Virus record (IMG/VR): IMGVR_UViG_3300045988_044527
Span: 1-5,329 of that record
Length of the DNA stretch: 5,329 nucleotides
Strand: one strand, 5' to 3'
Source of the DNA: a virus
The translations under genes were made by a program, and so were the position numbers. Each line of letters begins with the position of its first letter. Position 1 is the first letter of the stretch. Positions 1 to 5,329 of the stretch are shown here, piece after piece. Below the pieces are notes generated by a model. That model was not told the DNA's origin. It did no database searches and saw only the letters and a list, made by a program, of their open reading frames with translations.

Positions 1-99
1 ATTTTTTTATGCGTCCTCGCTTGGTTCGCTACTACGGCCCTGATTACGATAATTTGAAACATGGTCGTGTCTATCAGGTTCATTGTCTTTACTCCCATG
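1..99. repeat. Terminal redundancy: exact copy of 5231-5329, indicating a circular genome of 5,230 nt written with overlap
   Basis: Base-by-base comparison shows positions 1-99 are identical to 5231-5329, which is the signature of a circular contig. This is not a biological direct repeat. Confidence 0.95.
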
Positions 100-167
100 G
101 CTTCATGCTGATTGATGATCACAACGAAAAGGCATATGTTTATGCCGGAAATTGTGAGGTGCTATGA
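9..167 (+). CDS. Hypothetical small protein, 52 aa (MRPRLVRYYGPDYDNLKHGRVYQVHCLYSHGFMLIDDHNEKAYVYAGNCEVL); unknown function
   Basis: The ATG at 9 is preceded across the circular junction by GAGGTG (5225-5230) at 8-nt spacing and by the promoter. It ends at TGA 165-167, directly abutting the Rep GTG start in the same frame. I recognise no family for it. Confidence 0.55.
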   Translation: MRPRLVRYYGPDYDNLKHGRVYQVHCLYSHGFMLIDDHNEKAYVYAGNCEVL

Positions 168-1169
168 GTGCCTTGCTATCATCCCATTTACGCCGTTCGT
201 ATCGGTACTAAGGAAAACGGAAAAGCTGAGTTGAAAATGCTTGGTTATACCCCGGATGACCGTGAAACCTATGTCGAATGGCACAACCACCGCTATCCTC
301 GTTCCGCTCTCGTTCCACTGCCCTGTGGTCAGTGTATCGGATGCCGCATTGACTATTCAAGGCAATGGGCAAACCGTTGTTTGCTTGAACTTAAGTACCA
401 TGATTCCGCTTGGTTCTGCACGTTCACCTATGATGATGACCACGTTCCTCGTACTTATTACCCTGATCCTGAAACTGGTGAAGCTATCCCAGCTTTGACC
501 TTGCAAAAGCGTGATTTCCAACTTTTGATGAAGCGTATTCGGAAGAAATTTGAAAATGATAAAATTCGGTTCTTCATGTCCGGCGAGTACGGCTCTCAGA
601 CGTTCCGGCCACATTATCACGCTATTTTGTTCGGTTTGCACTTGGATGATCTCCAACCCTATAAAACTGTCAAGGAAGGAGGTGAGTATTACACTTATTA
701 TAACAGTCCCTCTCTCCAAGAGTGTTGGCCTTATGGCTATGTAGTTGTTGGTGAAGTCACGTGGGAATCCTGTGCTTACACTGCTCGCTACGTGATGAAA
801 AAGCTGAAAGGAAAGGAAGCTAAGTTTTATGCAGACCACAATATTCAGCCTGAGTTTACACTCATGTCCCGAAAGCCTGGGATTGCACGTCAGTATTTTG
901 ACGAAAACCCTCACTGCGTTGAAGAACAGTATATCAACGTTTCTACGCCGAAAGGCGGAAAAAAGTTCCGTCCGCCGAGGTACTACGATAAACTCTACGA
1001 CGTCGAATGCCCCGAAAAGTCCGCAGAGTTAAAAGCCCTACGTGCTAAGCTGGCCCAACAGGCCATGGAAGCTAAGTTGTCTAATACGTCTCTTGATTCC
1101 TATGAACTGAGAGACGTTGAAGAAGAAAAACAGTCCAACCGTTTAAAATCGTTAAGGAGGAATTTGTAA
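168..1169 (+). CDS. Replication initiation protein VP4 (rolling-circle HUH endonuclease, Microviridae Rep), GTG start
   Basis: The 333-aa ORF begins with the N-terminal C-x-x-P-x-x-A-x-R motif (MPCYHPIYAVR) typical of gokushovirus VP4. It has the cysteine cluster CGQCIGCR...C; RCR motif I FCTFTYDD (nt 414-437); HUH motif II PHYHAILFG (nt 609-635); and motif III with the paired tyrosines AYTARYVMKK (Y204 and Y208, nt 777-791), as in phiX174 gene A. The RBS GAGGTG at 156-161 lies 6 nt before the GTG at 168. Confidence 0.92.
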   Translation: MPCYHPIYAVRIGTKENGKAELKMLGYTPDDRETYVEWHNHRYPRSALVPLPCGQCIGCRIDYSRQWANRCLLELKYHDSAWFCTFTYDDDHVPRTYYPDPETGEAIPALTLQKRDFQLLMKRIRKKFENDKIRFFMSGEYGSQTFRPHYHAILFGLHLDDLQPYKTVKEGGEYYTYYNSPSLQECWPYGYVVVGEVTWESCAYTARYVMKKLKGKEAKFYADHNIQPEFTLMSRKPGIARQYFDENPHCVEEQYINVSTPKGGKKFRPPRYYDKLYDVECPEKSAELKALRAKLAQQAMEAKLSNTSLDSYELRDVEEEKQSNRLKSLRRNL

Positions 1170-1276
1170 TGAAAATGCTCAAGCGTAAAGACAAGAAGGT
1201 GTTTTCCCGAACCGCCGCTAAGTCCAAGAAAATTAACATCGCTCCGAAAATCTTCCGTGGAGGTATCCGGCTGTGA
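1169..1276 (+). CDS. Small highly basic DNA-binding protein, 35 aa (MKMLKRKDKKVFSRTAAKSKKINIAPKIFRGGIRL); J/VP8-like DNA-packaging protein
   Basis: The ATG at 1169 overlaps the Rep stop (TAATG). A strong RBS AAGGAGG at 1154-1160 sits 8 nt upstream. Of its 35 residues, 13 are Lys or Arg. It is absent from the ORF track, which omits ORFs this short. It is analogous to phiX174 J and gokushovirus VP8. Confidence 0.7.
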   Translation: MKMLKRKDKKVFSRTAAKSKKINIAPKIFRGGIRL

Positions 1277-1658: not shown

Positions 1659-2138
1659 ATGGAGTTTAAAACTCAGTATGATGCCCGTGACCGCATCTTT
1701 TCTGACCCCGGTTCTCCTGAGCATATCACCTATGCCGGTCACTATGATGAAAAAGGCCGTGTAGTGCTTGAGGAATCCGGTCGTGAAAACCTGTATGACT
1801 ATATTCAGTCCTACGCCGAAAGCTGTGATATTCACGTTCTCATGAAGCGTTACGCCAACGGCGATGTTGACGCCCTTTCTCAGAAGCAGGGTTTCTATGG
1901 TGATTTCCTCGATTTCCCCAAGACCTATGCCGAAGCCCTCAACCACATGAATGAAATGGAGCGTCAGTTTTTGGCCCTGCCTGTGGAAACTCGTGAGAAG
2001 TTCGGCAACAGCTTCACGGAGTTTCTTGCCGCTTCTGGTGAAGCTGATTTCCTCGAACGGCTCGGAATTAAGAAAGAGCCTGCTGAGCCTGTCCCTGCTA
2101 TTCCTCAGGTTGAAACTAAGGAGGTTACAAAAGAATGA
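1659..2138 (+). CDS. VP3-like internal scaffolding protein, 159 aa
   Basis: The ATG at 1659 is preceded by the RBS AAGGAG (1647-1652), and the upstream gene's stop lies within that RBS. Its size (~150 aa), acidic character and position immediately upstream of the capsid gene fit gokushovirus VP3. The stop overlaps the VP1 start (ATGA). Confidence 0.6.
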   Translation: MEFKTQYDARDRIFSDPGSPEHITYAGHYDEKGRVVLEESGRENLYDYIQSYAESCDIHVLMKRYANGDVDALSQKQGFYGDFLDFPKTYAEALNHMNEMERQFLALPVETREKFGNSFTEFLAASGEADFLERLGIKKEPAEPVPAIPQVETKEVTKE

Positions 2139-3823
2139 ACAGAAATACCGAATCTCATTTCAGTTTGTCCCCCCATGTAGATATCTCTCGTTCTCGCTTT
2201 GACCGCTCTGCATCCCTCAAGACCTCGTTCAATGCCGGTGACGTAGTCCCTTTTTTCCTCGAAGAAGTGTTACCCGGCGATACGTTCAGCGTAGACACAT
2301 CCAAGGTTGTCCGTATGCAGACTTTGCTCACCCCTATGATGGACAACGTATATCTGGATACCTACTATTTCTTTGTCCCGAATCGTCTTGTGTGGGATCA
2401 TTGGAAGGAGTTTTGTGGTGAAAACACTGAGAGTGCATGGATTCCGCAGACTGAGTATACTATGCCCCAGATTACAAGCCCAGCTGGTCAAGGATGGAGT
2501 GTTGGAACTCTTGCTGACTATTTTGGCATCCCAACTGGCGTTGCTGGTCTCTCTGTGTCTGCTCTTCCCTTCCGGGCTTATGCCCTGATCATGAATGAGT
2601 GGTTTAGAGATCAGAACCTCCAAGATCCTCTTGTTGTGCCCACGGATGATAGTACCGTGGCTGGTGTCAATTCTGGCACGTTTGTGACAGATGTGGCTAA
2701 GGGCGGTAAGCCCTTCATCGCTGCCAAGTACCATGACTATTTCACTTCTGCTCTCCCCGCTCCGCAGAAAGGCCCGGATGTAACGATTCCTGTTGCACAG
2801 GCTGGTAGTTATCCGGTTGTCTCTCTTAATCAATATGTTGATTCTAGTAAGTCTAATGCTTCTGTTGCTTGGCAAAAATTAGATGGATCGGGTTTTTCTT
2901 TGCTTGACGGTTTAGGTATTGCTGTTGGTCAAAAACCTCGTAGCGGTGGCTTTGATTCTAAGTATTTTTCCGGTTCTATGACTGTTTCGGAAGGTGCTAG
3001 CGCAGGTTGGGATATTGCCCCGGCTAACCTTTGGGCTGTTGCTGATGGTAACGCCGCCGCCGCTACCATTAACCAGCTTCGTCTTGCTTTCCAGATTCAA
3101 AAATTCTATGAGCGTCAGGCCCGTGGCGGTTCTCGCTATACGGAAGTTGTTCGCTCCTTCTTTGGTGTGACCTCCCCGGATGCTCGCTTACAGCGGCCTG
3201 AATATCTCGGCGGTAACAGAGTTCCTATCAATGTCAATCAGATTGTACAGCAGTCCGGCACTCAGTCCGGCACTACGCCCCAAGGTACTGTTGTTGGTCA
3301 GTCCCTTACCACGGATAAGCATTCCGACTTTACCAAGTCTTTTACGGAGCACGGTTTGATTATCGGTGTTATGGTTGCCCGTTATGACCACACCTATCAG
3401 CAGGGCCTTAGCCGCCTGTGGTCTCGCAAGGATAAGTTTGATTTCTATTGGCCCGTTTTCGCTAACATCGGTGAACAGGCTATCAAGAACAAGGAAATCT
3501 TTGCACAAGGCAATGATAAGGATAACGAAGTCTTTGGCTATCAGGAAGCATGGGCCGAATACCGCTATAAGCCTAATATGGTGACCGGAGAAATGAGGTC
3601 TGCGTATGCCCAATCTTTGGATGTTTGGCATCTGGCTGATGATTACAGCACCCTTCCTTCTTTATCTGATTCGTGGATCAGAGAGGACAAGGCAAACATT
3701 GATCGTGTTTTGGCTGTCACATCTGCTGTTAGTAATCAGTTTTTTGCTGACATCTACGTGAAGAACTATTGTACCCGGCCTATGCCTATGTACAGCGTCC
3801 CCGGCCTGATTGATCATCATTGA
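2135..3823 (+). CDS. Major capsid protein VP1 (Microviridae F-like), 562 aa
   Basis: The N-terminal region RSRFDRS...LPGDTF...MDNVYLDTYYFFVPNRLVWDHWKEFCGE matches the conserved gokushovirus VP1 and phiX174 F N-terminal blocks (LPGDTF, YFFVP.R..W, W.KF.GE). The RBS AAGGAGG at 2118-2124 is 10 nt upstream. Its length is typical of gokushovirus VP1, which carries a large insertion loop. Confidence 0.95.
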   Translation: MNRNTESHFSLSPHVDISRSRFDRSASLKTSFNAGDVVPFFLEEVLPGDTFSVDTSKVVRMQTLLTPMMDNVYLDTYYFFVPNRLVWDHWKEFCGENTESAWIPQTEYTMPQITSPAGQGWSVGTLADYFGIPTGVAGLSVSALPFRAYALIMNEWFRDQNLQDPLVVPTDDSTVAGVNSGTFVTDVAKGGKPFIAAKYHDYFTSALPAPQKGPDVTIPVAQAGSYPVVSLNQYVDSSKSNASVAWQKLDGSGFSLLDGLGIAVGQKPRSGGFDSKYFSGSMTVSEGASAGWDIAPANLWAVADGNAAAATINQLRLAFQIQKFYERQARGGSRYTEVVRSFFGVTSPDARLQRPEYLGGNRVPINVNQIVQQSGTQSGTTPQGTVVGQSLTTDKHSDFTKSFTEHGLIIGVMVARYDHTYQQGLSRLWSRKDKFDFYWPVFANIGEQAIKNKEIFAQGNDKDNEVFGYQEAWAEYRYKPNMVTGEMRSAYAQSLDVWHLADDYSTLPSLSDSWIREDKANIDRVLAVTSAVSNQFFADIYVKNYCTRPMPMYSVPGLIDHH

Positions 3824-3828
3824 TTCAT

Positions 3829-3860
3829 AGAGGGGGCTTTTGCCCCCTCTTGTTTTTTCT
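3829..3860 (+). terminator. Rho-independent terminator/attenuator between VP1 and VP2
   Basis: A perfect 9-bp GC-rich stem, AGAGGGGGC (3829-3837) pairing with GCCCCCTCT (3842-3850), has a TTTT loop and is followed by TGTTTTTTCT (3851-3860). It lies 5 nt after the VP1 stop. It is analogous to the post-F terminator of phiX174. Confidence 0.75.
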
Positions 3861-3876: not shown

Positions 3877-4740
3877 ATGGCATTTGGTACCACTACTTCC
3901 GCTTACGAAATGGATGGTGTCGGAGCCGCTCCGGCTGTCAACCGTGCCGCTGATCAGATCGCTGGTTTGAAAGGTGTTGCACAAGCTAATTCTGCTTTTA
4001 ACGCTGAGCAAGCTAAAGTTCAGCGTGATTGGACAGAGCAAATGACTGCAAAGCAGATGGACTTTAATGCCGCCGAGGCCGCTAAAAATCGTCAGTGGCA
4101 AGAAATGATGTCCAATACTGCCCATCAAAGAGAAGTCCGTGACCTTATGGCCGCTGGCTTGAATCCTGTTCTTTCTGCTATGAATGGCAACGGCGCCGCC
4201 GTTGGTTCCGGTGCGACCGCTTCAGCGTCCCTTGGAAGCGGTTCTAAGGCCGACGCAGATACAGCCGCTTCCGGTGCTATTGCTAACTTGCTCGGCTCCA
4301 TCTTGGGCGCTCAGACGGCGTTACAGAGTGCAAATATAAACGCCCGTACTCAGGAAGCCGTTGCAGACAAGTACACCGCTATGGAGCATATTGTTGCTCA
4401 GATTTCTGCCGCCGCTGGTATTCGGCAAGCTGGTATTCATGCTGGTGCTACTCGTGATGCCGCCGCTATGAGTTCTTCTGCTACTCGGTATGCCGCTGGT
4501 CAGGCCGCTTTAGCGTCTATCTTTGGTTCTTCCGTGAATTCTGCCGCTACTCGGTATGCTGCGGATCAACATTTGGAAGGCTCCAAGTATGGAGCTGATA
4601 AGTCCTATGACGCTTCTAAGTATGCTTCGGATATCAATTGGGATAAGGCTGTTCATTTTGGTAACGGTAGTTTTATGAATCAGATGGCCGGAAATATTGG
4701 TTTGTCGCTTTCAAGTCTTTTAAAAATGATTGGAGGTTAA
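3877..4740 (+). CDS. VP2 minor capsid / DNA pilot protein (H-like), 287 aa
   Basis: The ATG at 3877 has AAAGGAG at 3862-3868. The ORF is open from 3820, but that stretch overlaps the terminator hairpin. The protein is Ala/Gly-rich and carries the conserved block NRQWQEMMSNTAHQREVRDLMAAGLNPVLS characteristic of gokushovirus VP2. Confidence 0.85.
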   Translation: MAFGTTTSAYEMDGVGAAPAVNRAADQIAGLKGVAQANSAFNAEQAKVQRDWTEQMTAKQMDFNAAEAAKNRQWQEMMSNTAHQREVRDLMAAGLNPVLSAMNGNGAAVGSGATASASLGSGSKADADTAASGAIANLLGSILGAQTALQSANINARTQEAVADKYTAMEHIVAQISAAAGIRQAGIHAGATRDAAAMSSSATRYAAGQAALASIFGSSVNSAATRYAADQHLEGSKYGADKSYDASKYASDINWDKAVHFGNGSFMNQMAGNIGLSLSSLLKMIGG

Positions 4741-4742
4741 GT

Positions 4743-4823
4743 ATGGAAAGTATCATCATGGTTTTGTCTTTGTCCGTAGTCACGGCCGCTGCTCTAAAAA
4801 TCATAAAAGAAATTTTTTCTTAA
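4743..4823 (+). CDS. Small hydrophobic peptide, 26 aa (MESIIMVLSLSVVTAAALKIIKEIFS); single predicted transmembrane helix; candidate lysis/toxin-like membrane peptide
   Basis: The ATG at 4743 is 2 nt after the VP2 stop. GGAGG at 4731-4735 gives ideal 7-nt spacing. A TAA stop lies at 4821-4823. It was not in the ORF track, which omits ORFs this short. A hydrophobic core of about 19 residues is followed by a charged tail, KIIKEIFS. Confidence 0.5.
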   Translation: MESIIMVLSLSVVTAAALKIIKEIFS

Positions 4824-4825
4824 AA

Positions 4826-4840
4826 AGCGGCGTCAGCCGC
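4826..4840. other. Short GC hairpin (GCGGC-GTCA-GCCGC); it resembles an intrinsic terminator on the minus strand only
   Basis: A 5-bp stem is preceded on the + strand by AAAAA and TTTTTT, so on the minus strand a U-tract follows the hairpin. On the + strand the hairpin is followed by CAAAAG, which gives no U-tract. Confidence 0.4.
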
Positions 4841-4845
4841 CAAAA

Positions 4846-4875
4846 GAGACCCACGGTCTAAACGCCGTGGGTCTC
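4846..4875. repeat. Perfect 11-bp inverted repeat forming a hairpin (GAGACCCACGG / CCGTGGGTCTC, 8-nt loop)
   Basis: Reverse-complementarity was verified directly: left arm 4846-4856, right arm 4865-4875. No U-tract follows on either strand. Confidence 0.8.
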
Positions 4876-4904
4876 CGCCTGTACGTCCATTTACATTAGG
4901 CGTA

Positions 4905-4947
4905 CACTCAGCACAGTTAACTCTCTTGATGTTAACTGTGCTGAGTG
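4905..4947. repeat. Perfect 17-bp inverted repeat forming a hairpin (CACTCAGCACAGTTAAC / GTTAACTGTGCTGAGTG, 9-nt loop); candidate ssDNA origin or packaging structure
   Basis: Left arm 4905-4921, loop 4922-4930, right arm 4931-4947, verified as exact reverse complements. It lies in the main non-coding region of an ssDNA genome. Confidence 0.8.
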
Positions 4948-5129
4948 ACACCAAAGGTCACTTTGCGTGTCATAGTAGAAGTTGCTTGCACATGTCTAGA
5001 ACGTATGCAGTATTTCAAGATAAAATGTTTAGTAGGAGACCCCCGTAGGATACAAGTTCCTAAAAAATAATAGATAATAAAGTTTAAAATTTATTGGTAA
5101 ACTGAAATAGAACTACATTCTTGGTTTCG

Positions 5130-5161
5130 TGCACATTTGTGCATTTAGCCTAGAACTAGGC
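5130..5161. promoter_or_regulatory. Two 14-bp palindromes upstream of the promoter (TGCACA-tt-TGTGCA and GCCTAG-aa-CTAGGC); candidate operator sites
   Basis: Both have 6-bp arms around a 2-nt spacer, at 5130-5143 and 5148-5161. They lie 25-55 nt upstream of the -35 element. Confidence 0.3.
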
Positions 5162-5185
5162 CGAAATCTTTAGTAAATATGCAAA

Positions 5186-5214
5186 TTGATATTTTTGTTC
5201 AATCGTACTATTAT
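5186..5214 (+). promoter_or_regulatory. Sigma70-type promoter TTGATA-(17 nt)-TATTAT driving the small ORF and VP4
   Basis: The -35 TTGATA at 5186-5191, a 17-nt spacer, and the -10 TATTAT at 5209-5214 sit in an AT-rich intergenic region. The predicted transcription start is near 5221. The RBS GAGGTG at 5225-5230 and the ATG at 5239 (= position 9 on the circle) lie just downstream. Confidence 0.6.
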
Positions 5215-5230
5215 CACCTTATATGAGGTG

Positions 5231-5329
5231 ATTTTTTTATGCGTCCTCGCTTGGTTCGCTACTACGGCCCTGATTACGATAATTTGAAACATGGTCGTGT
5301 CTATCAGGTTCATTGTCTTTACTCCCATG
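5231..5329. repeat. Second copy of the terminal overlap; contains a partial duplicate of the 52-aa ORF start (ATG at 5239)
   Basis: Identical to 1-99. The ATG at 5239 corresponds to the ATG at position 9. Confidence 0.95.

What the first reader, a model, noticed from the sequence alone, without database searches (positions are those of the whole stretch)
4731..4823. Strongly RBS-coupled 26-aa transmembrane peptide directly downstream of VP2
MESIIMVLSLSVVTAAALKIIKEIFS has a GGAGG exactly 7 nt upstream, and its ATG is 2 nt after the VP2 stop. This context argues for real translation. It is a single short transmembrane helix with a charged tail. That makes it resemble type I toxin peptides of the Fst, Hok or TisB kind, or small single-gene lysis and membrane peptides. 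No lysis gene analogous to phiX174 E is evident elsewhere in this genome.
Basis: partly seen in the sequence, partly recalled or inferred. Interest (0 to 1): 0.7.

Follow-up and report, generated by a model that had tools for sequence, protein, structure and literature searches.

The report
Unannotated membrane peptide gene after VP2
A tiny gene that no database annotates sits right after the pilot-protein gene of a human-gut microvirus and encodes a conserved 26-residue membrane-type peptide, which is the best current candidate for how this phage group, which has no known lysis gene, damages or bursts its host.

Summary
ATG 4743 to TAA 4823 encodes MESIIMVLSLSVVTAAALKIIKEIFS. GGAGG (4732-4736) lies 6 nt upstream, and the ATG is 2 nt after the VP2 stop.

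It is a real gene, not a chance ORF.
- 39 copies (26 distinct DNA sequences, 18 distinct peptides) from GenBank, IMG/VR and metagenomes all keep exactly 26 codons, the ATG, a ribosome-binding site and the hydrophobic core.
- Synonymous changes are in excess only in this frame (70 synonymous / 90 non-synonymous, p=5e-6).
- The ORF survives when its context changes: different VP2 ends, or a position behind another small ORF.

No record annotates it, and it is too short for gene callers. It matches no Pfam or PHROG family, including the type I toxin families and phiX174 E.

It belongs to a variable slot between VP2 and the origin hairpins. In gut gokushoviruses this slot holds single-helix peptides of 25-51 aa; a few genomes have none.

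Function is inferred, not shown. The most likely role is a membrane-acting lysis effector (about 0.4). Rivals are superinfection exclusion or another membrane role, or a VP2 accessory. Type I toxin membership is not supported. Related prophages in Clostridia MAG contigs suggest Gram-positive hosts.

The parts
4732..4736 (+). Shine-Dalgarno GGAGG of the small ORF, lying inside the last VP2 codons (GGA GGT)
   Evidence: Five of the six + strand GGAGG sites precede ORF starts. An SD-like motif (GGAGG, AAGGAG, GGTGA or AAGGA) is kept in relatives whose upstream context differs.
4743..4823 (+). 26-codon gene for the hydrophobic peptide MESIIMVLSLSVVTAAALKIIKEIFS (stop TAA 4821-4823)
   Evidence: One search gives the ORF. 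Searches give 39 copies, 26 unique DNA sequences and 18 unique peptides, always 26 codons with no internal indel. Synonymous changes are in excess only in this frame (p=4.9e-6). One search gives the hydropathy and flank charges.
3877..4740 (+). VP2 (DNA pilot protein) gene. Its stop codon lies 2 nt before the small ORF's ATG, which suggests translational coupling.
   Evidence: homologues are annotated VP2 / DNA pilot protein in GenBank relatives; the RNA minimum-free-energy fold pairs the SD region with VP2 codons upstream (inference only).
3829..3850 (+). Intrinsic-terminator-like hairpin plus T-run between VP1 and VP2. VP2 and the small ORF would then be expressed only from read-through transcripts.
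   Evidence: 9-bp stem with 7 GC pairs, followed by TGTTTTTTCT. This is a consensus match only, and its function is inferred.
4827..4840 (.). Hairpin 1 (GCGGC-GTCA-GCCGC), starting 4 nt after the stop codon. It is part of a nucleotide-conserved element (ATTTTTTCTTAAAAAGCGGCG...) that overlaps the 3' end of the ORF.
   Evidence: The element persists where the ORF ends earlier (L026-29) and where the ORF is absent (L007, L138). It reads as a terminator-like site on the minus strand.
4846..4875 (.). Hairpin 2 (GAGACCCACGG / CCGTGGGTCTC). The structure is conserved while the sequence varies.
   Evidence: 9 of its 12 pairs show compensatory double changes across 12 relatives.

Best explanation
The ORF at 4743-4823 is a genuine, so far unannotated protein-coding gene of a roughly 5.23-kb gut gokushovirus.

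Shown:
- It has its own strong SD and an ATG 2 nt after the VP2 stop.
- It is kept as exactly 26 codons under purifying selection across a clade of human- and animal-gut gokushoviruses.
- Its product has a conserved layout: a short acidic N-terminus (Met-Glu-Ser), a 15-16-residue uncharged hydrophobic core, and an amphipathic, net-positive C-terminus (K-I-I-K-E-I-F-S).
- It belongs to a variable slot between VP2 and the origin-region hairpins that holds small single-helix peptides in most relatives.

Inferred:
- It is transcribed on the low-abundance read-through transcript that also carries VP2.
- It is translated by ribosomes that terminate on VP2 or load at the SD.
- It inserts into the host cytoplasmic membrane in an N-out/C-in orientation (positive-inside rule).
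- As it accumulates late in infection, it compromises the envelope. It could do so by depolarising or permeabilising the membrane, which in Gram-positive hosts can unleash autolysins. Or it could block a membrane step of peptidoglycan-precursor supply, as the single-gene lysis proteins of phiX174 and ssRNA phages do. Either way it would release progeny from a phage that encodes no endolysin.
For: Real gene:
- ORF, SD and spacing.
- Chance expectation of 0.1%.
- All close relatives (8 GenBank genomes, about 20 IMG/VR contigs and 12 metagenome contigs) keep it.
- Diverged members exist where VP2 is only about 60-75% identical: L031, L033, L034, L041, L133, L134.
- A minimum-spanning-tree count gives 70 synonymous and 90 non-synonymous changes against an expected synonymous fraction of 0.27 (p=4.9e-6). 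This is significant separately for codons 1-18 and codons 19-26. The other two sense frames and all three antisense frames sit at expectation.
- pN/pS is 0.41 in this frame against 0.75 and 1.18 in the other sense frames.
- Replacements are hydrophobic-for-hydrophobic or charge-conserving, e.g. K22R and E23D in L134.
- One-base indels occur just after the stop codon but never inside the ORF.
- The ORF is kept in changed contexts: after other VP2 C-termini with other SDs, overlapping the VP2 stop (ATGATGG in L031), or behind another small ORF.

Membrane character: every 26-aa member has an uncharged run of 15-16 residues, an N flank of -1 and a C flank of +1.

Lysis inference:
- The genome encodes Rep, a VP8-like protein, VP5, the VP3 scaffold, the VP1 capsid and VP2, but no peptidase or endolysin.
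- The literature states that gokushoviruses lack a known lysis gene (PMC7062461; PMC3394797).
- The ORF meets the operational criteria used to find single-gene lysis genes: at least 25 codons, an SD and a TMD (PMC7693330).
- The slot is filled by different small TM ORFs in different lineages: 25-, 26-, 28-, 33-, 35/36- and 37-51-aa types. This mirrors the lineage-specific turnover described for lysis genes of ssRNA phages.
Against: - There is no functional or expression data of any kind.
- The hydrophobic run is short, and TMHMM/DeepTMHMM could not be run.
- The genome is T-rich, so hydrophobic ORFs arise easily.
- The 3' end of the ORF overlaps a nucleotide-conserved element, which inflates C-terminal conservation.
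- Three related genomes have no small ORF in the slot: MG945402 (L007), MG945428 (L138) and MG945227 (L140). E. coli gokushovirus prophages carry a basic VP8-like ORF there instead. The peptide therefore cannot be the general gokushovirus lysis solution.
- In the ssRNA-phage screen only 33 of 293 candidates had any phenotype, and most TMD-bearing candidates had none.
- A strong SD is unusual for a lysis gene that must act late.
Confidence: 0.42

Rival explanations
1. It is a real membrane peptide with a non-lytic role. Options are superinfection exclusion (blocking entry of incoming microvirus DNA), modulation of host membrane physiology during a carrier or lysogenic state, or a toxin that stabilises the episome or prophage (type I toxin-like addiction).
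For: - The evidence for a gene and for membrane character is the same as for the best explanation.
- Relatives of this clade occur as prophages inside long Clostridia/Bacillota MAG contigs, next to cellular genes and a XerC/D-like recombinase. A temperate or carrier lifestyle is therefore plausible.
- Presence or absence between close relatives fits an accessory gene.
- A terminator-like hairpin on the minus strand abuts the 3' end of the ORF, and a weak promoter-like site lies at 5101-5074 on the minus strand. Together these could in principle give a convergent RNA.
Against: - No type I toxin profile matches.
- No antisense transcript is known in any microvirus; this rests on established knowledge and was not tested here.
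- The promoter-like count equals the shuffle expectation.
- The SD is strong and coupled to VP2 rather than sequestered.
- The window itself shows no clear dif-like site.
Confidence: 0.25
2. It is an accessory of the VP2 pilot protein: a separate membrane anchor or helper for DNA delivery or assembly. Alternatively it is fused to VP2 by a -1 ribosomal frameshift at TTTAAAA (4719-4725), which would put the peptide frame in phase with VP2.
For: - It is adjacent to VP2 and coupled to its translation.
- T_TTA_AAA lies in the correct X_XXY_YYZ phase, and the -1 frame is open into the ATG (read).
- The window's VP2 has no obvious strongly hydrophobic segment of its own.
Against: - The slippery heptamer is not conserved. 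It is absent or out of phase in L003/L012/L013/L019, L025/L030, L026-29 and L031, whereas the ATG and SD are always kept.
- In L032-34 and L041 the peptide gene is separated from VP2 by another ORF.
- Three relatives with an ordinary VP2 lack the peptide.
Confidence: 0.1
3. It is a translated leader-like or uORF-like element. What matters is the act of translation, which would modulate folding of the hairpins that start 4 nt after the stop (mRNA 3'-end stability or termination). The peptide itself would have no function.
For: - The stop codon lies 4 nt before hairpin 1, so a terminating ribosome would cover its 5' arm.
- Hairpin 2 is structurally conserved.
Against: - Amino-acid-level constraint: synonymous excess, conservative replacements, fixed length and a conserved charge pattern.
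- In L026-29 the ORF ends about 30 nt before the hairpin and is still conserved.
Confidence: 0.05
4. It is a non-functional chance ORF in a T-rich intergenic stretch, conserved only because the DNA is constrained as part of the origin or hairpin region.
For: - The T-rich + strand produces many hydrophobic ORFs.
- The last codons overlap a conserved DNA element.
- The region 4500-5220 is more conserved (94-95%) than the genome average of about 90%.
Against: - The synonymous excess is frame-specific, also in codons 1-18 outside the conserved element.
- Start, stop, length and SD are kept at up to about 45% nucleotide divergence and in new contexts.
- The chance expectation is 0.1%.
Confidence: 0.06

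Closest known systems
phiX174 lysis protein E (Pfam Microvir_lysis), the single-gene lysis protein of Bullavirinae microviruses
   Same: It is a small membrane protein of a microvirus that has no endolysin, and its activity resides in one N-terminal transmembrane helix. It would fill the same gap in the life cycle. The 28- and 35-aa relatives in the same slot even carry an F-P motif in the helix. This recalls the essential proline of E, which is recalled knowledge and not tested here.
   Different: There is no sequence similarity. The peptide is 26 aa against 91 aa for E. It is a stand-alone gene after VP2 rather than overprinted in the scaffold gene. The window's peptide has no proline. The probable host is Gram-positive. 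The target is unknown.
Single-gene lysis proteins (Sgl) of ssRNA phages, e.g. the 37-residue LysM that blocks MurJ (PMC12506998), and the metagenomic Sgls of Chamakura et al. 2020 (PMC7693330)
   Same: They share the operational signature of at least 25 codons, an SD and one TMD. They also share very small size, lack of homology between lineages, and lineage-specific gain, loss and relocation, as seen in the post-VP2 slot.
   Different: This is a DNA phage. The gene is not embedded in another gene. No lytic phenotype has been shown. At 26 aa it sits at the very bottom of the size range.
Type I toxin peptides (Fst/Ldr, Hok/Gef, TisB)
   Same: They are similar in length (about 20-50 aa) and have one hydrophobic helix with a short polar or charged end. 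A membrane-depolarising mode of action is plausible for both.
   Different: No profile matches. No antisense RNA antitoxin is evident. The gene sits in a phage late operon with a strong coupled SD rather than a repressed mRNA. It is conserved as part of a virus genome, not a chromosomal or plasmid addiction locus.
Other occupants of the same slot in gut gokushoviruses. These include the 35/36-aa type (KT264763; Dulem virus 152 'hypothetical protein' XCD03433.1) and the 37-51-aa 'PY...R.LWHaG' type (Dulem virus 156 XCD04057.1; KX513865).
   Same: They share the position (directly after VP2, before the origin hairpins), an SD-coupled start, and one hydrophobic helix plus a basic or amphipathic tail. 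The 26-, 28- and 35-aa types align at the N-terminus: MES-IIM against MEGTSSAIVM. KT264763 shares the GGAGGTTAA-N-ATGGAAGG junction.
   Different: The WHaG type has no detectable similarity to the 26-aa peptide. It can sit in front of the 26-aa peptide in the same genome (L032-34). It is found only on contigs of about 5 kb, in 22 unnamed clusters. None of these has a known function.

Membership tests
Type I toxin peptides (Fst/Ldr, Hok/Gef, TisB and similar) | Small hydrophobic peptide (under about 60 aa) with one membrane helix | tested here: met
   26 aa, with an uncharged run at residues 3-18 of mean Kyte-Doolittle 2.33.
Type I toxin peptides (Fst/Ldr, Hok/Gef, TisB and similar) | Sequence match to a described toxin family profile | tested here: not met
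   hmmscan against Pfam-A at E<=1 gives only DUF2677 at E=0.23 (11.8 bits against a cut-off of 27). PHROGs gives nothing.
Type I toxin peptides (Fst/Ldr, Hok/Gef, TisB and similar) | Antisense RNA antitoxin that base-pairs with the toxin mRNA | tested here: inconclusive
   The minus strand has only consensus matches: a terminator-like site at 4842-4828 and a 9/12 promoter-like site at 5101-5074. The number of promoter-like sites equals the shuffle expectation. No Rfam family matches. No transcript data are available.
phiX174 E (Microvir_lysis) | Gene overprinted in the +1 frame inside the external scaffold gene | tested here: not met
   The ORF is a stand-alone gene that starts 2 nt after the VP2 stop.
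phiX174 E (Microvir_lysis) | Sequence similarity to the family; N-terminal helix with the essential proline | tested here: not met
   There is no Pfam hit and no proline in the 26-aa peptide.
phiX174 E (Microvir_lysis) | Inhibition of MraY, dependence on SlyD | not testable with these tools
   This needs genetics or biochemistry.
Single-gene lysis (Sgl) candidate, operational definition of Chamakura et al. 2020 | [quoted passage not shown] | tested here: met
   26 codons and GGAGG with a 6-nt spacer. The hydrophobic run was scored by hydropathy scales only, because TMHMM was not available. The criteria are quoted.
Single-gene lysis (Sgl) candidate, operational definition of Chamakura et al. 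2020 | Lysis or growth arrest on induced expression | not testable with these tools
   This needs an experiment. In the cited screen only 33 of 293 candidates scored positive.
Holins | Small membrane protein encoded next to an endolysin gene, which it releases or activates | tested here: not met
   The genome contains no endolysin or peptidase. All larger ORFs are Rep, VP5, VP3, VP1 and VP2. From recalled knowledge, 26 aa with one short helix is below the size of described holins.
Post-VP2 small membrane peptide family of gut gokushoviruses (defined here) | ORF of 26-28 codons starting M-E/S-S-I-I-M, directly after VP2 or after another small ORF, followed by the GCGGCG hairpin element | tested here: met
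   The window is one of 39 copies. The 28-aa subtype is in L026-29 and L095.

The most novel reading that the evidence does not exclude
The 26-residue peptide would be the lysis effector of a clade of human-gut gokushoviruses whose hosts are Gram-positive Clostridia. The VP2-to-origin slot would be a hot-spot where microviruses repeatedly evolve new single-helix lysis peptides. If so, it would be the first lysis gene identified in Gokushovirinae, among the smallest phage lysis proteins known, and a new 'protein antibiotic' lead against Gram-positive anaerobes.
Probability: 0.35. Interest if true: 0.8.

Novelty: new variant of a known kind. Interest (0 to 1): 0.62.

Why it matters
Gokushoviruses are among the most abundant ssDNA phages in the human gut, yet the literature states they lack any recognisable lysis gene (PMC7062461, PMC3394797). 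This gene is invisible to standard annotation, because at 81 nt it falls below gene-caller limits and is absent from a collection of 15 billion proteins. Here it is shown to be under protein-level selection, so it supplies a concrete, synthesisable candidate and a defined genomic slot to test. If it is lytic, it would extend the 'single-gene lysis / protein antibiotic' concept to very small peptides and probably to Gram-positive hosts. If it is not, it is still a conserved virus-encoded membrane micro-protein of unknown role. It would also show that microvirus gene counts are underestimated.

Tried and rejected
1. Chance ORF: rejected by shuffles and by frame-specific synonymous excess.

2. 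Antisense-strand gene: rejected. All three antisense frames carry stop codons in most members (15, 21 and 22 of 22 sequences) and their synonymous/non-synonymous counts sit at about the neutral expectation.

3. VP2-peptide fusion by a -1 frameshift at TTTAAAA (4719-4725): the phase is right in the window, but the heptamer is not conserved while the ATG and SD are. Rejected as the general mechanism.

4. Embedded VP1 +1 ORF 3606-3761 as the 'real' lysis gene:
- It stays open in the clade with at least 85% VP1 identity, including L007.
- Its amino-acid sequence drifts freely.
- It is broken in L009, L041, L046 and L137, and also in L138 and L140, which lack the post-VP2 ORF. There is therefore no complementary distribution.
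- Synonymous diversity in VP1 dips at 3650-3805. This is left unresolved.

5. Homology searches:
- Pfam and PHROGs gave nothing.
- tblastn against 50,697 phage records found only the 8 close relatives.
- The exact sequences are not in the protein collection.
- The search for homologous proteins refuses queries under 40 aa.
- The representative-library search and structure prediction need at least 30 aa, so they could not be used for the peptide.

6. A profile search with the neighbouring WHaG family found only 22 unnamed clusters on microvirus-sized contigs and gave no functional hint.

7. Using the origin hairpin as an anchor in IMG/VR mostly retrieved gokushoviruses with a different gene order, in which VP3 lies next to the origin. 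It added only one new member, L095.

8. Rfam: no match.

Full report
**What the window is.** The 5329-nt window is one circular gokushovirus-type microvirus genome of about 5230 nt. Bases 1-99 are repeated at 5231-5329.
- All genes lie on the + strand:
  - a 52-aa ORF at 9-167
  - Rep/VP4 at 168-1169
  - a 35-aa basic VP8-like ORF at 1169-1276
  - a 41-aa ORF at 1273-1398
  - VP5 at 1403-1654
  - the VP3 scaffold at 1659-2138
  - the VP1 capsid at 2135-3823
  - VP2 at 3877-4740
- The closest GenBank records are eight human faecal or vaginal microviruses at about 90% identity: KT264760, OP549869/72/75 and OP971934-37.

**Check of the observation.**
- The ORF at 4743-4823 encodes MESIIMVLSLSVVTAAALKIIKEIFS.
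- GGAGG lies at 4732-4736, a 6-nt spacer follows, and the ATG starts 2 nt after the VP2 stop at 4738-4740.
- Five of the six + strand GGAGG sites lie 6-10 nt before ORF starts.
- In 2000 dinucleotide-preserving shuffles of 4701-5228, an ORF with SD + ATG + at least 25 codons + a hydrophobic core appeared in 0.1% of shuffles, or 1.85% without the SD.
- The hydrophobic, uncharged run is residues 3-18, which is 16 aa and short for a membrane span. The N flank has charge -1 and the C flank +1.

The description is correct. The 'charged tail' is better described as a weakly basic, amphipathic tail.

**Is it a gene?** None of the eight GenBank relatives annotates it, yet all keep it.
- VP2-anchored and peptide-anchored scans of IMG/VR and a metagenome scan brought the total to 39 copies, 26 distinct DNA sequences and 18 distinct peptides.
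- Every copy has exactly 26 codons. No indel occurs inside the ORF, while 1-nt indels occur in the A-run just after the stop.
- Diverged members include:
  - MESVIMICCFGLLGAFTLKIIKEIFS (L031)
  - MENIIMICCLSLVAAFTIKIIRDIFS (L134)
  - MESIIMILVCGTMTCVFLKVINNIFS (L041)
  - MTEIICCICCMVSLAVACKTIEKIFS (L033)
- A minimum-spanning-tree count gives 70 synonymous and 90 non-synonymous steps, against an expected synonymous fraction of 0.27 (p=4.9e-6).
  - The excess holds for codons 1-18 (p=9e-4) and for codons 19-26 (p=1.2e-3).
  - The two other sense frames (p=0.55 and 0.94) and the three antisense frames are at expectation.
- Pairwise pN/pS is 0.41 in this frame, against 0.75 and 1.18 in the other sense frames.
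- Replacements are conservative: I/V/L/C/M/F swaps, small-for-small changes, K22R and E23D.
- The ORF and an SD are kept in changed contexts:
  - after different VP2 C-termini, with AAGGAG or GGTGA as the SD
  - overlapping the VP2 stop (ATGATGG in L031)
  - behind another small ORF (L032-34, L041)

I conclude with about 0.9 confidence that this is a translated, selected gene.

**Why it has been missed.** At 81 nt it falls below usual gene-caller limits. The exact 26- and 28-aa sequences are absent from the collection of 15 billion proteins, whereas the longer neighbours of 38-46 aa are present but unnamed.

**A caveat on the C-terminus.** The last codons (ATT TTT TCT TAA) and the following AAAGCGGCG...GCCGCC hairpin form a nucleotide-conserved element.
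- The element persists where the ORF ends earlier. In L026-29 the 28-aa subtype MESIIMIICLTAVMFPFFVLLKKLIDKL ends about 30 nt before it.
- It also persists where the ORF is missing (L007, L138) or reduced to a relic (L009: MKKIINDFFS).
- Part of the C-terminal conservation is therefore DNA-level. The ORF and the element are nevertheless separable, and the selection signal also holds for codons 1-18.

**The surroundings.**
- Upstream, a canonical intrinsic-terminator-like hairpin plus T-run lies between VP1 and VP2 at 3829-3850. VP2 and the peptide would then come from read-through transcripts; this is inferred.
- The RNA minimum-free-energy fold pairs the SD with VP2 codons. That fits translational coupling but was not tested for conservation.
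- Downstream lie three hairpins:
  - hairpin 1 at 4827-4840
  - hairpin 2 at 4846-4875, where 9 of 12 pairs show compensatory changes
  - a long hairpin at 4905-4947, whose loop TCTCTTGAT is 85-94% conserved in 78 phage records and occurs in 43 IMG/VR contigs. It probably carries the Rep nick site.
- No Rfam family matches.

**The slot.** In gut-type gokushoviruses, the space between VP2 and these hairpins holds small single-helix ORFs of several kinds.

| Type | Example sequence | Where found |
|---|---|---|
| 26 aa | the window's peptide and its variants | the window clade and the diverged members listed above |
| 28 aa | MESLILIVLLLVFGFPVVGILWKLFRKL (L095) | L026-29, L095 |
| 35/36 aa | MEGTSSAIVMLVVLIAFLFPIRKLFKAVIDWLDRH (KT264763) | KT264763, L040, Dulem virus 152 |
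| 25 aa | – | MG945296 |
| 33 aa (own reading) | – | L046 |
| 42 aa | – | L045 |
| 37-51 aa 'PY..R.LWHaG' | – | KX513865, Dulem viruses 156 and 164, L032-34, L037, L043 |

- KT264763 shares the same GGAGGTTAA-N-ATGGAAGG junction with the window.
- The 26-, 28- and 35-aa types align at their N-termini.
- In L032-34 and L041 a longer TM ORF precedes the 26-aa gene.
- The WHaG family occurs only on contigs of about 5 kb, in 22 unnamed clusters.
- Three relatives have nothing in the slot: MG945402, MG945428 and MG945227.
- E. coli gokushovirus prophages carry an unannotated basic VP8-like ORF there.
- The slot is therefore an accessory, fast-turnover position, not a core gene.

**Comparison with known families.**
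- Pfam-A, which includes the type I toxin families and phiX174 E, and PHROGs give no match.
- Type I toxin membership fails the profile test. There is no evidence for an antisense RNA, since the minus-strand signals are only consensus matches at chance frequency.
- phiX174 E membership fails on gene architecture, sequence and the proline.
- There is no endolysin that a holin could serve.
- The ORF does meet the operational Sgl-candidate criteria of Chamakura et al. (at least 25 codons, an SD and a TMD). That study also shows that most such candidates have no phenotype.

**Host lead.**
- VP1 relatives lie inside long contigs of Clostridia, Bacillota, Christensenella and Oscillibacter MAGs.
- The closest one, L115, shares 85% identity over the N-terminal 216 aa of VP1.
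- Its upstream flank carries a GH18 hydrolase, an IS3-type transposase and a XerC/D-like recombinase.
- Homology to Dulem virus 164 starts near a dif-like sequence.
- Strong SD use by all genes fits Bacillota hosts.
- MAG-based host calls are error-prone, and microviruses of Gram-positive bacteria were first reported only in 2022 (PMC9239249).

**Mechanism.**
- Shown: a selected 26-codon gene with an SD, and a membrane-type composition with conserved flank charges.
- Inferred: late, VP2-coupled expression, followed by insertion into the cytoplasmic membrane in an N-out/C-in orientation.
- Inferred: envelope damage that leads to release. The damage could be depolarisation, which can trigger autolysis in Gram-positive bacteria (recalled knowledge). 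It could also be a block of a lipid-II pathway enzyme, as with E or LysM.
- I give this 0.42.
- Rivals are a non-lytic membrane role such as superinfection exclusion or addiction (0.25), a VP2 accessory or frameshift fusion (0.10), a regulatory uORF (0.05) and a chance ORF (0.06).
- The -1 slippery heptamer TTTAAAA at 4719-4725 is in the right phase in the window but is not conserved.
- The embedded +1 ORFs in VP1 behave like by-products of T-rich third codon positions. A dip in VP1 synonymous diversity at 3650-3805 is unexplained.

**Verdict.** It is a new, unannotated micro-protein family and a concrete candidate for the open question of gokushovirus lysis, though only for this clade.

Noticed in passing
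window 4905-4947: A long perfect hairpin (CACTCAGCACAGTTAAC / GTTAACTGTGCTGAGTG) with the loop TCTCTTGAT. This stretch is 85-94% identical in 78 otherwise diverged phage records, and the exact core occurs in 43 IMG/VR contigs, including gokushoviruses with a different gene order. The loop resembles the phiX174 gene A nick site CAACTTG/ATATTAATAAC (recalled from memory). It is probably the plus-strand origin.
   Followed up: partly
window 4827-4840 and 4846-4875: Two hairpins lie directly after the small ORF. Hairpin 1 is sequence-invariant. Hairpin 2 keeps its structure through compensatory changes in 9 of 12 pairs. They are possibly a complementary-strand origin or an mRNA 3'-end structure. 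Hairpin 1 followed by a T-run reads as an intrinsic terminator on the minus strand.
   Followed up: partly
window 3829-3850: A strong intrinsic-terminator-like hairpin (AGAGGGGGC TTTT GCCCCCTCT followed by TGTTTTTTCT) lies between VP1 and VP2. It suggests attenuated expression of VP2 and the small ORF.
   Followed up: no
window 3606-3761 and 2415-2588: Hydrophobic +1-frame ORFs of 51 and 57 aa with SD-like sequences are embedded in VP1. The 51-aa ORF stays open in relatives with at least 85% VP1 identity, but its amino-acid sequence is not conserved and it is broken in more distant genomes. VP1 synonymous diversity drops from 0.25-0.33 to 0.14-0.17 at 3650-3805, which is unexplained.
   Followed up: partly
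window 9-167 (= 5239-5329...), 5186-5232: A 52-aa ORF (MRPRLVRYYGPDYDNLKHGRVYQV...) lies upstream of Rep. It is preceded by a promoter-like site (TTGATA-17-TATTAT, 5186-5214) and a hairpin plus T-run at 5213-5232. Relatives carry an unrelated, conserved 57-60-aa ORF (M.F.DL.VCNKDW...LWFRD.VV.L.) in the same position.
   Followed up: no
L008 4278-4433; L009 2532-2672; L137 2625-2753; L032-34, L037, L043: A second family of small membrane proteins (37-51 aa; invariant P, R, W and G in ...PY....R.LWHaG.W.K...) lies directly after VP2. In some genomes the 26-aa gene follows it. A profile search found only 22 unnamed clusters, all on microvirus-sized contigs.
   Followed up: partly
L115 1-6772; also L108-L113, L119: Gokushovirus prophages sit inside long Clostridia, Bacillota, Christensenella and Oscillibacter MAG contigs. 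L115 is flanked by a GH18 hydrolase, an IS3 transposase and a XerC/D-like recombinase. The phage/host junction lies near a dif-like sequence (TTTGTTCAATAG...TAATGTAAATA in L009). This suggests temperate gokushoviruses of Gram-positive anaerobes.
   Followed up: partly
L109 7495-7581: A Bacillota-MAG gokushovirus prophage has a 28-aa hydrophobic ORF (MDTIKKVFKVFIWFMLIMCVFYLLGLLL) with an AAGGAG SD. It lies between VP1 and VP2, so it is a small membrane ORF in a different slot.
   Followed up: no
L141 6589-6708 (E. coli C41 chromosome NZ_CP127252): In an E. coli gokushovirus prophage the ORF coupled to the VP2 stop (GGAGGTAATATG) is a 39-aa arginine-rich VP8/J-like DNA-binding peptide. PGAP did not annotate it.
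   Followed up: no
window 4719-4725: T_TTA_AAA is a -1 slippery heptamer in the correct phase. A slip there would fuse VP2 to the small ORF's frame. It is not conserved in relatives.
   Followed up: partly
window 1169-1276 and 1273-1398: Two further small GGAGG-preceded ORFs lie between Rep and VP5: a 35-aa basic VP8-like ORF and a 41-aa ORF (MSSVSVCVDGVPVAVVPLWMIKHAVEDAIAQYPDKKITVEV). They are annotated only as 'hypothetical' in OP549869 and not at all in the other relatives.
   Followed up: no
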